A stretch of DNA of 64,000 bases from Candidatus Omnitrophota bacterium (GTDB lineage Bacteria; Omnitrophota; Gorgyraeia; Gygaellales; Profunditerraquicolaceae), in the NCBI GenBank assembly GCA_028717245.1, contig JAQUOD010000003.1:21636-85635 (forward strand), read 5' to 3'. This document shows, piece after piece, positions 6,452-8,907 of the stretch. Each line of letters starts with the position of its first letter. The first letter of the stretch is position 1. A program made the position numbers and the translations under genes. The notes under the pieces are model-generated. The model was not told where the DNA came from. It searched no databases and was given only the letters and a program-made list of their open reading frames with translations.

Positions 6452-7882
6452 ATGGAACAACAAACAGAATTACAAGAGCTAAAACCTTGCCCTTCATGCG
6501 GAACTATGCTGCCGTATGACAAATGGCTTAAGGTAGTAGGTGTTTATGAAGAACAGCAAAAACACAGGAAACAGCTCGAGCAAGAACTTTCTAAAGCAAA
6601 AGAGCAAAGCCAAAAACTTAAAGAGGAATACAAAAACGTCAGAGAAAAAGAGAAACAATTAAAAAATCAATACTTGCAAAAAATAAAAGACAGTCGAGCA
6701 CAAGTTAAAGAAACACAAGGGAGATTAAAAAACAAAGAGCGTCTCTTAAAATCAGAACTTAAACAGAAATTTAACTTGCGAGAAGAAAAACTCCAATCTA
6801 GATTTGAAAAAGATAAACAAACAGCATTAAATCGGATCAGAAAAGAAGGGATAAGAATTGGCTCAGAAAAAGAGAAAATAAAAGCAGAAAAACTTAAAAA
6901 TGATATAGAGAAATTAAAAAAAGAACAAGTAGATGCTAAGGCAAAACTTAAAGAGAAATTTCAGAAAGAGCAAGAAAGAATTAAGCGTAAATTAGAAAGA
7001 GAAAAACATAAAGAACAGAAGCAGATTCGTCAAGATGGCATAAAGACGGGAATGGATAAACAAAGAGCGAGGACAGAGAAGGTAAGCCAAATGGCTGAGA
7101 AATATCGAAAAGCAAGAGATGAAGCAATTGAGAAAGCTAAGCAGCTTGAGGAAATGATAAAAAAAGGCACAACGCCACAGATAGAGGGTCTTGATTTTGA
7201 GCATGAGTTAGCTAATCAACTCAAACAGAAATTTCCAGAAGATGAAATAAAACCAACGGGACGAAAAGGTGATATTATTCAGACAGTGCAAGCGGAAAGC
7301 AAGAAGATCGGGAAGATTATTTATGAGTGTAAAAAGACCAAAGAATTTCAGAATCAATTCATAGAACAAATTCGACGCGATAAAGCTAGAGTAATTGCAG
7401 ACCATGGGATAATCGTTACTTGGGCTACCAAAGAAGACAGGCGGGGTTTTTGGGTCGAAGGCGATATAATTATAGTTCATCCCTATGGAGTTTTGGATAT
7501 GGCAACATTCCTTCGAGAAACATTACTACAGATGTATGCGCTTAAATTATCAAAGTCAGAATTTGAAACTAAAGGTAAGGCCATACTTGAATTTATGCAA
7601 TCCGAAGAATTTAGGACCCGAATTCAAGATTCTATTACGAAAAGTAAAGAAGCCTATGATATTTTGAAAAAGGAAGTCAAAACACATATGAATACTTGGA
7701 AAAAGAGATTCAAAATATACGAGGGAATCCATAGAAATACTAGCATTATTCAGAATACGGTTCGTTACGTGTTGCTTCACGGTAAAATTCCGGAGAAACT
7801 TCCTGAGGCAAAAGAACTCCCAGCTTTACCTCTATCAATGGAAACAACAGGAAATAAGTCCAGGCCTATTTTAGAGACATAA
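6452..7882 (+). CDS. Zinc-ribbon / long coiled-coil / C-terminal PD-(D/E)xK-like protein, resembles the DUF2130 family
   Basis: N-terminal CPSCG...Y, ~190 aa K/E-rich heptad-like region, then GDIIQTVQ...GKIIYECKK (D...E-x-K); 476 aa. Confidence 0.4.
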   Translation: MEQQTELQELKPCPSCGTMLPYDKWLKVVGVYEEQQKHRKQLEQELSKAKEQSQKLKEEYKNVREKEKQLKNQYLQKIKDSRAQVKETQGRLKNKERLLKSELKQKFNLREEKLQSRFEKDKQTALNRIRKEGIRIGSEKEKIKAEKLKNDIEKLKKEQVDAKAKLKEKFQKEQERIKRKLEREKHKEQKQIRQDGIKTGMDKQRARTEKVSQMAEKYRKARDEAIEKAKQLEEMIKKGTTPQIEGLDFEHELANQLKQKFPEDEIKPTGRKGDIIQTVQAESKKIGKIIYECKKTKEFQNQFIEQIRRDKARVIADHGIIVTWATKEDRRGFWVEGDIIIVHPYGVLDMATFLRETLLQMYALKLSKSEFETKGKAILEFMQSEEFRTRIQDSITKSKEAYDILKKEVKTHMNTWKKRFKIYEGIHRNTSIIQNTVRYVLLHGKIPEKLPEAKELPALPLSMETTGNKSRPILET

Positions 7883-7953
7883 ATGTCGATTTTCATTTTT
7901 TCTTTATAGCGGGAACTTGCTTTAAAGATAATTTCTCAATTCTTTTCATTCAT

Positions 7954-8907
7954 ATGAAGGATTTATTTGGAAATCAGAAAGATAAAAATCAGCTTATTAA
8001 TCTTAATCTATTTTGCGATGAAGCTGAATCTCAAGGTTGGCTGTATCTAGGGATTCTGATAATTCCAGTGGCAAGGGAAAATGAATTCATTCAAGATTTG
8101 CTAAACTGTCGTTGTGGTAATCCTGCTAAGAATACAATTTGGGGTGAATGCGTAGACATTTGTAGACATCATGCTAAGAATAATACGCATATTCATTTTA
8201 AAGATATTCACAAGGCAAAGGACAAGTTTTTTATCGCCAAAAAATGGATAGAATATTTACTGTCAGATCGAGAAATAATTCATTTTTACATATTAGGCTT
8301 AGATATCAATAAAATAGACCTATCTCAATTCGGAGAACGGAAACAACGCAGTAATATTTACAATAGATTCTTTAGAACAGCGATTTTAAAATCAGTTAAG
8401 TCGTACTTCCATAAATGGGATACCATTGTAATAGATAATATTTATCACGATAATAATCGATCGTTAGAAACACATAAACATTTTCCTTGGCATCCGATAT
8501 TCTTTATATCAAGCAACGATGAAAAAATTACAATAAAAGCAAAGAATGTTACTTTTATTGATTCCGATCATAGATTATCGGGGAGTCAATATTCTCACCT
8601 TATTCAATTTATGGATTTGGTATTAGGATGTGTGCATAATTGTTTGCATCACACTTCAAAAGATAATGATAAGGAGATAATTGCTTTACAATCTTTAAAG
8701 CTAATACAGCGGATTATTGATAAGCCAAATAATCGCAACAGCCAATATAACTATGTGGGTAGACAAAAAATAGAATTTTTTCCAAAGTATGATTTGAGGA
8801 ATCTAAATGAAAGTGAACTGGAGTGTGAAAACAAAAGGATGGGAGCATTTTATACAGGAAGACATATTAAGATAAAGGATAGAAACCAGATTACGCTTTT
8901 TAATTAA
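7954..8907 (+). CDS. Hypothetical protein, DUF3800-like (LFCDEAES..WLYLGILII resembles the N-terminal yiDESG...fvlggvvi signature)
   Basis: 317 aa, AT-rich, last gene of the operon; the family call comes from motif resemblance only. Confidence 0.3.
   Translation: MKDLFGNQKDKNQLINLNLFCDEAESQGWLYLGILIIPVARENEFIQDLLNCRCGNPAKNTIWGECVDICRHHAKNNTHIHFKDIHKAKDKFFIAKKWIEYLLSDREIIHFYILGLDINKIDLSQFGERKQRSNIYNRFFRTAILKSVKSYFHKWDTIVIDNIYHDNNRSLETHKHFPWHPIFFISSNDEKITIKAKNVTFIDSDHRLSGSQYSHLIQFMDLVLGCVHNCLHHTSKDNDKEIIALQSLKLIQRIIDKPNNRNSQYNYVGRQKIEFFPKYDLRNLNESELECENKRMGAFYTGRHIKIKDRNQITLFN

What the first reader, a model, noticed from the sequence alone, without database searches (positions are those of the whole stretch)
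6452..8907. DUF2130-like (Zn ribbon + ~190-aa K/E coiled coil + D..ExK domain) and DUF3800-like genes appended to the R-M operon
Both are uncharacterized families. The first combines a CPxCG zinc ribbon, an extremely long charged coiled coil and a C-terminal block GDIIQTVQ...IIYECKK that looks like a nuclease active site. The second carries the DESG-like N-terminal signature of DUF3800. They sit in the same orientation, with the same AT-rich composition, inside the same inverted-repeat-bounded island. This suggests an accessory defense or abortive-infection module riding with the R-M genes.
Basis: partly seen in the sequence, partly recalled or inferred. Interest (0 to 1): 0.6.

Follow-up and report, generated by a model that had tools for sequence, protein, structure and literature searches.

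The report
Two predicted nucleases riding a mobile R-M island
Two uncharacterised predicted nuclease genes (a coiled-coil DUF2130 nuclease and an RNase H-like DUF3800 relative) sit behind a restriction-modification operon on a mobile island, and comparison with other genomes suggests they are accessory defence-type cargo, a role nobody has tested.

Summary
Both genes are real. ORF 6452-7882 is a clear DUF2130 protein (Pfam E 2.4e-25). It has a single CPxC knuckle rather than a full zinc ribbon, a ~215-aa antiparallel SMC-like coiled coil, and a PD-(D/E)XK core with invariant E250/D274/E292/K294. ORF 7954-8907 belongs to a small divergent DUF3800 subfamily. Its own Pfam score is 19 bits, below the cut-off of 21, but it keeps the DE and QxxD motifs and has an RNase HII-like predicted fold.

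The "accessory defence module" reading is partly supported:
- DUF2130 and DUF3800-like genes are adjacent in three independent lineages, in both gene orders. One is a second island of the same type (tRNA, serine recombinase 52% identical, long inverted repeats, R-M).
- The DUF3800-like subfamily is often next to DNA methyltransferases (15/56 loci against 0/52 for DUF2130).
- DUF2130 neighbours include Gabija-like, Lamassu-like, toxin-antitoxin and integrase genes.
- Neither gene has phage homologues.

The pairing is a minority arrangement. Neither protein matches any PADLOC model. No experiment exists.

In a distant subgroup the DUF3800-like gene is inserted into methyltransferase 3' ends, with duplicated coding ends that differ only synonymously. 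This allows a rival reading as a selfish mobile gene.

The parts
6452..7882 (+). DUF2130-family gene (476 aa), a predicted coiled-coil PD-(D/E)XK nuclease
   Evidence: ORF. PF09903 at E 2.4e-25. 147 homologues found. AF2 model pLDDT 86.9.
6488..6499 (+). CPSC knuckle (C13, C16) in an N-terminal beta-hairpin. It is not a complete zinc ribbon.
   Evidence: C13/P14/C16 are conserved in 74 of 78 homologues. C293 and H412 are conserved in 76 of 78 and are lost together in the two H. pylori sequences. The hairpin spans residues 10-21 in the AF2 model. A shared CCCH metal site is inference only.
6515..7165 (+). K/E-rich antiparallel coiled-coil arm (residues 22-238, apex about 132-138)
   Evidence: AF2 helices 22-131 and 139-238. 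Best Foldseek matches are SMC coiled-coil fragments. Arm length varies from 95 to 223 residues among homologues.
7175..7480 (+). PD-(D/E)XK nuclease core (residues 242-343) with E250, D274, E292-x-K294
   Evidence: These residues are invariant in 78 sequences. Secondary structure order is alpha-beta-beta-beta-alpha-beta. DUF2130 is listed in the PD-(D/E)XK superfamily (PMC3424549).
7481..7780 (+). C-terminal helical domain (residues 344-443) with invariant R355, E408, W416 and near-invariant H412
7883..7953 (.). 71-nt spacer between the two genes
   Evidence: 80% identical over 60 nt to the spacer in L067. No terminator-like site is predicted between 3082 and 8907.
7954..8907 (+). DUF3800-like gene (317 aa), a predicted RNase H-fold nuclease
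   Evidence: ORF. PF12686 at 19 bits, below the cut-off of 21. 34 of 80 family members hit PF12686. AF2 pLDDT 92.4. Foldseek top hit is RNase HII 1eke, E 7.8e-4.
8017..8022 (+). D22-E23, the N-terminal DE motif of DUF3800
   Evidence: Present in 75 of 80 homologues; the other 5 have gaps here.
8113..8172 (+). Cys/His insert C54, C66, C70, H73, a possible zinc site specific to this subfamily
   Evidence: Present in 63-64 of 80 homologues; most of the others lack the insert.
8605..8616 (+). Q218..D221, the QxxD motif of DUF3800
   Evidence: Invariant in 80 of 80. H165-D166 and D205-H206 are also conserved.
2744..6387 (+). Upstream R-M operon: HTH controller (2744-2953), Dam-type MTase (3082-4152), N6_N4 MTase (4152-4961), a 309-aa ORF (4966-5895) and a 163-aa ORF (5896-6387)
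   Evidence: Pfam and PADLOC. The same gene set is in L001 and L154.
2216..2643 (-). Left arm of the long inverted repeat bounding the cargo
8936..9362 (+). Right arm of the long inverted repeat, followed by a terminator-like hairpin at 9359-9379
475..2028 (-). Large serine recombinase next to tRNA-Ala (513-588), the probable integrase of the island
   Evidence: Pfam Resolvase + Recombinase + Zn_ribbon_recom. tRNA. 52% identical to the recombinase of the analogous island in L118.

Best explanation
The two genes encode two separate, catalytically intact predicted nucleases. They are accessory cargo of a mobile, tRNA-Ala-linked serine-recombinase island that also carries a controller-regulated, two-methyltransferase Type II R-M system.

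Gene 1 (DUF2130) is a PD-(D/E)XK endonuclease mounted at the base of a long SMC/Rad50-like antiparallel coiled-coil arm. It most likely works as a coiled-coil-mediated dimer that binds and cuts DNA. This is inferred by analogy with RmuC-domain nucleases.

Gene 2 (DUF3800-like) is an RNase H-fold nuclease with a DE...HD...DH...QxxD acidic site and a Cys3His insert. Its subfamily is a habitual companion of DNA methyltransferases of many types.

I think they act as second-line nuclease effectors that work beside the R-M enzymes, as a backup or abortive-infection-type module. I do not think they are the restriction enzyme.

Shown: the families, the conserved active sites, the predicted folds, the recurrent adjacency and the neighbourhood bias.

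Inferred: nuclease activity, substrates, cooperation between the two proteins, and any defence phenotype.
For: - ORFs and Pfam matches.
- Invariant E250/D274/E292/K294 in DUF2130. Coiled-coil plus alpha/beta core in the model.
- Conserved D22-E23, H165-D166, D205-H206 and Q218..D221 in the DUF3800-like protein. RNase HII-like fold. This agrees with published RNase H assignments for DUF3800 (PMC7736814, PMC10910872, PMC12669027).
- The block 6431-8996 is 89% identical to L001/L002, where it follows the same methyltransferases.
- The two genes are adjacent in L017 (DUF2130 62% identical, DUF3800 24%) and, in reversed order, in L118/L119 (26% and 36% identical). These divergences are incongruent, which argues for repeated assembly of the pair.
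- L118 has the same island design: tRNA-Gln, a recombinase 52% identical, 190-nt inverted repeats, an EcoRV-like endonuclease and a LexA-D12 methyltransferase.
- DUF3800-like genes are also next to RmuC, an analogous coiled-coil PD-(D/E)XK protein, in L090 and L129.
- Immediate neighbours of 64 dereplicated DUF3800-like loci include Eco57I-type methylase (6), N6_N4 (4), C5 (1), a LexA-D12 fusion, Mrr (3), AlwI, GmrSD, HsdS, SMODS and SIR2.
- A methylase-motif gene is adjacent in 15/56 DUF3800-like loci against 0/52 DUF2130 loci. Fisher p is about 1e-4.
- The DUF3800-like gene is embedded in a Type I hsd operon (L150) and in a ResIII / Type III-like methylase / UvrD cluster (L152).
- DUF2130 sits beside OLD+UvrD (Gabija-like), NB-ARC, RelE/ParE, ThsB_TIR, PIN, LmuB and integrases.
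- No homologues in 50,697 phage records, and 0 and 1 loci in IMG/VR.
Against: - No experimental data exist for either family in this role.
- Neither protein matches any PADLOC model beyond weak coiled-coil hits to LmuB.
- The pairing is rare: 1 of 51 DUF2130 genome loci and 3 of 64 DUF3800-like lineages.
- L154 keeps the same four-gene R-M operon and the DUF3800-like gene but has no DUF2130.
- Some DUF3800-like genes lie among housekeeping genes (L012, L015, L143).
- The neighbourhood counts have no genome-wide background. Only the two families serve as controls for each other.
Confidence: 0.45

Rival explanations
1. The DUF3800-like gene is a selfish, self-mobilising (homing-type) nuclease gene that targets DNA-methyltransferase or R-M loci. 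DUF2130 is an unrelated neighbour. On this reading the R-M linkage reflects target preference, not cooperation in defence.
For: In a distant subgroup (31-35% identical), the DUF3800-like ORF overlaps the stop codon of a Type IIG-type methylase gene (ATGA overlap). It is then followed at once by a second, orphan copy of the methylase's last 20-60 codons.

In L130 the two copies differ at 19 codons, all synonymous. In L145 the count is 14 synonymous against 5 non-synonymous. So the downstream copy was a functional coding end until recently. This is what an insert that brings its own replacement 3' end would leave behind.

In L124, L125 and L133 the downstream remnant is from a different methylase type.

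Nearly all family members are stand-alone genes of about 320 aa, and no real fusions were found.

Insertion with long target duplication is a known but unexplained mode of R-M mobility (PMC2853133).
Against: No flanking repeat surrounds the DUF3800-like gene in the window, L001, L017 or L118.

No empty and occupied allele pair was available to compare.

The repeats could arise by ordinary recombination between methylase alleles.

Known roles of DUF3800 domains are as effector or accessory proteins in retron type VII and Cas12a2/a3 loci, not in mobility.
Confidence: 0.2
2. The two genes are simply independent cargo genes that happen to sit together in a variable region of a mobile island. They have no joint function and no functional tie to the R-M genes.
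For: Cargo regions of islands accumulate unrelated genes. The pair is absent from most loci of either family. L154 has one gene without the other. The middle of the operon is mosaic relative to L001: 32-34% identity there, against 83-89% DNA identity in the flanking blocks.
Against: The two rare families are immediately adjacent, on the same strand, with 10-71-nt spacers, in three lineages with incongruent divergence and in both gene orders. The DUF3800-like family has only 502 50%-identity clusters among 1.84 billion representatives. DUF3800-like genes also pair with RmuC in two more lineages.
Confidence: 0.15
3. They are DNA repair or recombination genes, or island-maintenance genes. They could act RmuC-like and RNase H-like, limiting self-damage caused by the R-M system or helping the element recombine. 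Vsr plays a comparable role beside C5 methylases.
For: RmuC and RNase H are housekeeping DNA-metabolism enzymes with the same folds. Both genes are conserved cargo in two related serine-recombinase islands with long inverted repeats. Vsr sits next to a C5 methylase and the DUF3800-like gene in L154.
Against: hhalign found no DUF2130-RmuC homology. Both families are rare and patchy, and have low GC relative to the host flanks. Neighbours are mostly conflict-system genes.
Confidence: 0.12
4. One or both proteins are the actual restriction endonuclease of the two methyltransferases. On this reading the 309-aa and 163-aa ORFs are something else.
For: Relative to L001, the methylases (86-88% protein identity) and the DUF2130/DUF3800 block (88% and 94%) are conserved. 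The 309-aa and 163-aa ORFs are only 32-34% identical. DUF2130 has the classical restriction-enzyme fold. The 309-aa and 163-aa ORFs have no family match.
Against: No DUF2130 locus has an adjacent methylase (0/52). L154 keeps M1-M2-309-163 at 65-80% identity without DUF2130. L118 has its own EcoRV-like endonuclease. L017 has the pair with no methylase-motif gene within 5 kb.
Confidence: 0.08

Closest known systems
DUF2130 (Pfam PF09903, COG4487), PD-(D/E)XK superfamily
   Same: Strong HMM match. The invariant E...D...ExK motif, the N-terminal CPxC and the coiled coil are shared across the family.
   Different: Nothing differs at family level. The family itself has no known function (PMC3424549). 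The window protein is a long-arm variant: its coiled-coil stretch is 223 residues, against 95-223 in the family.
DUF3800 (Pfam PF12686): retron type VII effector and the TPR-DUF3800 accessory of Cas12a2/a3 loci
   Same: DE and QxxD motifs and an RNase H2-like fold. Found in conflict-system neighbourhoods.
   Different: The window protein scores below the Pfam threshold. No reverse transcriptase, CRISPR array or TPR is nearby. No DUF3800-associated RNA motif was found in the window or in 27 related loci. The subfamily carries an extra Cys3His insert and is linked to DNA methyltransferases.
RmuC-domain nucleases, including Shield ShdA
   Same: Coiled coil plus a PD-(D/E)XK nuclease. ShdA alone gives phage defence and degrades DNA in vitro (PMC10270631). 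RmuC genes also neighbour DUF3800-like genes.
   Different: Different Pfam family, with no detectable profile-profile similarity. No membrane anchor. No tested activity.
R-M-linked abortive-infection nucleases such as PrrC or RloC inside Type I hsd loci (from my own knowledge, not checked in papers)
   Same: A latent nuclease gene embedded in or appended to R-M operons. L150 shows a DUF3800-like gene between hsdM/hsdS and hsdR.
   Different: Unrelated fold. No evidence of tRNA targeting or of control by the R-M complex.
Mobile R-M units flanked by long inverted repeats or integrated at tRNA genes (Furuta et al. 2010, PMC2853133)
   Same: An R-M operon with an integrase-type gene at a tRNA, bounded by long inverted repeats.
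   Different: Here the recombinase is a large serine recombinase lying outside the repeats. The same design, with the same two extra nuclease genes, recurs in L118.

Membership tests
DUF2130 (PF09903) | HMM score above Pfam's gathering threshold | tested here: met
   89.7 bits against 26.7, E 2.4e-25, residues 216-431.
PD-(D/E)XK nuclease superfamily | Conserved E / D / (D/E)xK catalytic residues on an alpha-beta-beta-beta-alpha-beta core | tested here: met
   E250, D274, E292 and K294 are invariant in 78 sequences. The predicted secondary structure order fits.
PD-(D/E)XK nuclease superfamily | Fold similarity to solved members | tested here: inconclusive
Zinc ribbon | Two CxxC-type knuckles giving four metal ligands in one small domain | tested here: not met
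   Only C13 and C16 are present at the N-terminus. C293 and H412 are conserved elsewhere in the protein and might complete a site, but this was not testable.
DUF3800 (PF12686) | HMM score above Pfam's gathering threshold | tested here: not met
   19 bits against 21, E 0.0024 for the window protein. 34 of 80 homologues match at E<=0.01, best 1.9e-6.
DUF3800 (PF12686) | N-terminal DE motif and C-terminal QxxD motif | tested here: met
   D22-E23 in 75 of 80. Q218 and D221 in 80 of 80. The motif definition comes from PMC7736814.
DUF3800 (PF12686) | RNase H (H2-like) fold | tested here: met
   AF2 pLDDT 92.4. The only significant PDB match is RNase HII 1eke, E 7.8e-4, probability 1.0, though TM is only 0.34-0.45.
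DUF3800-associated RNA systems (DUF3800-I to XI, drum, skipping-rope) | A known structured RNA motif next to the gene | tested here: not met
   No Rfam hit in window 1-12000 at E<=0.1, nor in 27 related loci.
Retron type VII | Reverse transcriptase and msr/msd RNA next to the DUF3800 protein | tested here: not met
   No reverse-transcriptase domain in any island ORF.
Known anti-phage systems (PADLOC-DB 2.0) | Match to a model of a described or candidate defence protein | tested here: not met
   DUF3800-like: none. DUF2130: only LmuB at E 0.003-0.009 over the coiled coil.
RmuC family (PF02646) | Sequence-profile homology to RmuC | tested here: not met
   No Pfam RmuC hit. hhalign against two RmuC sequences gave probability 0.7%.
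Type II R-M system (as its endonuclease subunit) | Consistent adjacency of the nuclease to a cognate methyltransferase across homologues | tested here: not met
   0 of 52 DUF2130 loci have an adjacent methylase-motif gene.

The most novel reading that the evidence does not exclude
The DUF3800-like gene family is a previously unrecognised kind of single-gene mobile element. It would be an RNase H-fold 'homing' nuclease gene that inserts into the 3' ends of DNA-methyltransferase genes and brings a replacement C-terminal coding segment. It would therefore spread as a parasite or hitch-hiker of R-M systems. The copy in this window would be a domesticated or resident member, paired with a DUF2130 nuclease.
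Probability: 0.15. Interest if true: 0.8.

Novelty: new variant of a known kind. Interest (0 to 1): 0.55.

Why it matters
DUF2130 and DUF3800 are widespread domains with no assigned function.

If the pair is a working accessory nuclease module, it would add a new component class to R-M and defence islands. It would also give DUF2130 its first functional context.

The specific linkage of one DUF3800 subfamily to methyltransferases of Types I, II, IIG and III is new. So is its insertion into methylase 3' ends with synonymous-only duplicated ends. Either it points to a general R-M companion nuclease (guard or backup), or it points to a mobile gene that targets R-M loci.

Both ideas can be tested with simple cloning, plating and nuclease assays.

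Tried and rejected
- Known DUF3800-associated RNAs: Rfam scans of the window and 27 related loci found none.
- A conserved non-coding motif next to DUF3800-like genes: all-against-all BLAST of flanks found only the duplicated methylase 3' ends in the distant subgroup. Nothing was found for the window's close relatives.
- Flanking direct repeats around the window's own DUF3800-like gene: none.
- DUF2130-RmuC homology by hhalign: not detected.
- Sequence relatives with solved structures for either family: none meaningful.
- Fusions of the DUF3800-like domain with other domains: the few long hits look like spurious N-terminal extensions.
- Phage origin: no hits.
- The gene after DUF2130 in L016 as a hidden DUF3800 relative: no.
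- The inverted-repeat arms as a tmRNA or tRNA-like gene: ARAGORN and Rfam find nothing. The 3' end also lacks a G3:U70-compatible acceptor. I dropped this idea.
- The 309-aa and 163-aa ORFs: no Pfam, NCBIfam, PHROG or PDB match.
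Full report
**Observation.** The window has two + strand ORFs exactly as described: 6452-7882 (476 aa) and 7954-8907 (317 aa). They are separated by 71 nt and follow five other + strand ORFs. Both lie in a low-GC block (0.30-0.40), while the flanks are at 0.44-0.52. The block is bounded by long inverted repeats at 2216-2643 and 8936-9362. Upstream lie an HTH controller gene, a Dam-type (D12) methyltransferase, an N6_N4 methyltransferase and two ORFs without family matches. 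No terminator-like site is predicted between 3082 and 8907.

**Gene 1.** The protein matches PF09903 (DUF2130) at E 2.4e-25.
- In an alignment of 78 homologues, E250, D274, E292 and K294 are invariant.
- The AlphaFold2 model (pLDDT 86.9) shows a short beta-hairpin carrying CPSC. It then has two very long helices (22-131 and 139-238), an alpha-beta-beta-beta-alpha-beta domain holding the invariant residues, and a helical C-terminal domain.
- Foldseek's best PDB matches are SMC coiled-coil arms, so the helices form an antiparallel arm.
- Arm length varies from 95 to 223 residues across the family.
- The 'zinc ribbon' is only one knuckle. C13 and C16 are conserved, as are C293 (inside E-C-K) and H412. 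The two H. pylori sequences lose C293 and H412 together. A Cys3His site joining the N-terminus to the nuclease domain is possible but untested.
- DUF2130 is listed as a PD-(D/E)XK family of unknown function (PMC3424549).
- Profile comparison with RmuC found nothing. No solved relative exists.

**Gene 2.** The window protein scores 19 bits on PF12686, just under the cut-off of 21.
- 34 of 80 homologues match that model.
- The defining DE (D22-E23) and QxxD (Q218, D221) motifs are conserved, with H165-D166 and D205-H206.
- The model is confident (pLDDT 92.4). Its only significant PDB match is RNase HII. This agrees with the published view of DUF3800 as an RNase H-fold nuclease.
- The subfamily has an extra C54/C66/C70/H73 insert.
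- It is small: 502 clusters among 1.84 billion representatives.
- No known DUF3800-associated RNA motif lies near it, in the window or in 27 related loci.

**Relatives of the whole locus.**
- Contigs L001 and L002 carry the same methyltransferases (86-88% protein identity) and the same DUF2130/DUF3800-like block (88% and 94%). The two middle ORFs are only 32-34% identical, and a GmrSD gene follows.
- L154 has the same four-gene R-M operon (65-80% identity). It also has a DUF3800-like gene (57%) next to a C5 methylase and Vsr, but no DUF2130.

**Is the pair linked?** I searched 51 DUF2130 loci from genomes and 80 DUF3800-like loci from metagenomes with family HMMs.
- Beyond close relatives, the two genes are adjacent in L017, a Saccharibacteria MAG.
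- They are adjacent in the opposite order in L118/L119.
- Identities to the window proteins are incongruent: 62% and 24% in L017, 26% and 36% in L118. This suggests the pairing was assembled more than once.
- DUF3800-like genes also sit beside RmuC in L090 and L129.
- L118 mirrors the window's design. It has tRNA-Gln, a large serine recombinase 52% identical to the window's, and 190-nt inverted repeats. These bracket an EcoRV-like endonuclease, a LexA-D12 methylase, the DUF3800-like gene and DUF2130.
- Still, only 1 of 51 DUF2130 genome loci and 3 of 64 dereplicated DUF3800-like lineages show the pair.

**Neighbourhoods of the DUF3800-like subfamily.**
- Immediate neighbours are often methyltransferases: Eco57I/Type IIG (6-7), N6_N4/Type III (4), C5 and D12. 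Mrr, AlwI, GmrSD, HsdS, SMODS and SIR2 genes also appear.
- A crude motif survey found an adjacent methylase-motif gene in 15 of 56 DUF3800-like loci, against 0 of 52 DUF2130 loci. Fisher p is about 1e-4.
- In annotated examples the gene lies inside a Type I hsd operon (L150). It also lies between a 938-aa methylase and a UvrD helicase (L152).

**Neighbourhoods of DUF2130.**
- Neighbours are heterogeneous but conflict-related. They include integrases, PIN, NOV_C, ThsB_TIR, LmuB/ABC-3C, OLD+UvrD, NB-ARC, RelE/ParE and BsobI.
- Neither family has homologues in GenBank phages, and IMG/VR gave 0 and 1 loci.
- DUF2130 occurs on 35 plasmids.

**An unexpected feature.** This concerns the distant subgroup linked to Type IIG methylases.
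- The DUF3800-like ORF overlaps the methylase stop codon. It is followed by a second copy of the methylase's last 20-60 codons.
- In L130 the copies differ at 19 codons, all synonymous. In L145 the count is 14 synonymous to 5 non-synonymous.
- The orphan copy was therefore a working coding end until recently. This fits insertion of a unit made of a replacement 3' end plus the DUF3800-like gene into the methylase gene.
- This supports a rival reading as a selfish mobile gene.
- The window's own copy has no such repeats.

**Conclusion.**
- My best reading (0.45) is that the genes are two accessory nuclease effectors carried as cargo with R-M genes on a mobile island. The DUF3800-like protein is the R-M-linked partner and DUF2130 is a general defence-island nuclease.
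- Nuclease activity, substrates, cooperation and phenotype are all inferred.
- The rivals are a self-mobilising DUF3800-like gene (0.2), unrelated cargo (0.15), repair or maintenance functions (0.12), and the true restriction nuclease (0.08).
- The kind of island is known (PMC2853133). The gene pair and the methylase linkage of this DUF3800 subfamily are not described in the papers I could search.

Noticed in passing
L123-L146 (for example L130 941-1894 with flanks; L145; L126; L139): DUF3800-like genes are inserted at the 3' end of Type IIG-type methylase genes. The methylase C-terminal coding segment (53-139 nt) is duplicated on both sides. In L130 the copies differ at 19 codons, all synonymous. 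In L124, L125 and L133 the downstream remnant comes from a different methylase type.
   Followed up: partly
window 2216-2643 and 8936-9362: The 427-nt inverted-repeat arms are 94-100% identical at their ends but only about 73% identical in the central ~160 nt. In that central part, 10 predicted base pairs change on both sides and stay paired, which suggests a structured RNA or DNA element. There is no Rfam match. The outer ends read GCACCACCA, like the tRNA-Ala 3' end.
   Followed up: partly
window 475-2028 (-), 513-588, 580-673 and 2143-2236; L118 4535-12056: A large serine recombinase abuts tRNA-Ala. Its ORF runs through a 94-nt repeat and through the tRNA itself. The same layout recurs in L118 with a recombinase 52% identical: tRNA, recombinase, inverted-repeat arm, cargo, inverted-repeat arm, terminator hairpin. 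I did not resolve whether the cargo segment is invertible or how the element moves.
   Followed up: partly
window 4966-5895 and 5896-6387: The 309-aa ORF has two LAGLIDADG-like motifs (AYLLGLIVGRG, EFLRGIADVTG). It belongs to a large unannotated family (549 hits); one member is labelled 'intein/homing endonuclease' by JGI. It always travels with a ~160-aa partner behind the two methylases. It may be the restriction enzyme and would have an unusual fold. L001 carries 32-34% identical alleles between flanking blocks that are 83-89% identical at DNA level.
   Followed up: partly
window 7954-8907 (residues 54-73): A Cys3His insert (C54, C66, C70, H73) is conserved in 63-64 of 80 members of the DUF3800-like subfamily. 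It is missing as a block in the rest.
   Followed up: no
window 6452-7882 (C13, C16, C293, H412): Four potential metal ligands are conserved together across DUF2130. C293 lies between the catalytic E292 and K294. C293 and H412 are replaced together in the two H. pylori sequences.
   Followed up: no
L090 12988-18534; L149 5617-12694: DUF2130 directly follows an LmuB-like SMC ATPase of an ABC-3C/Lamassu-type cluster in L090. On an Aliarcobacter plasmid it directly precedes an OLD-family endonuclease plus a UvrD helicase (Gabija-like) and a methylase.
   Followed up: no
window 3000-3052; L154 6209-6260: A 53-nt stretch upstream of the first methylase gene overlaps the start of a bidirectional terminator-like hairpin (3043-3070). 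It recurs at 87% identity, inverted, upstream of the DUF3800-like gene in L154.
   Followed up: no
L001 7686-9350; window 8908-8996: In L001 a GmrSD-type (Type IV) restriction gene follows the DUF3800-like gene. The first 89 nt after the DUF3800-like stop codon are shared (75% identity) between L001 and the window. In the window they run into the inner end of the right repeat arm.
   Followed up: no
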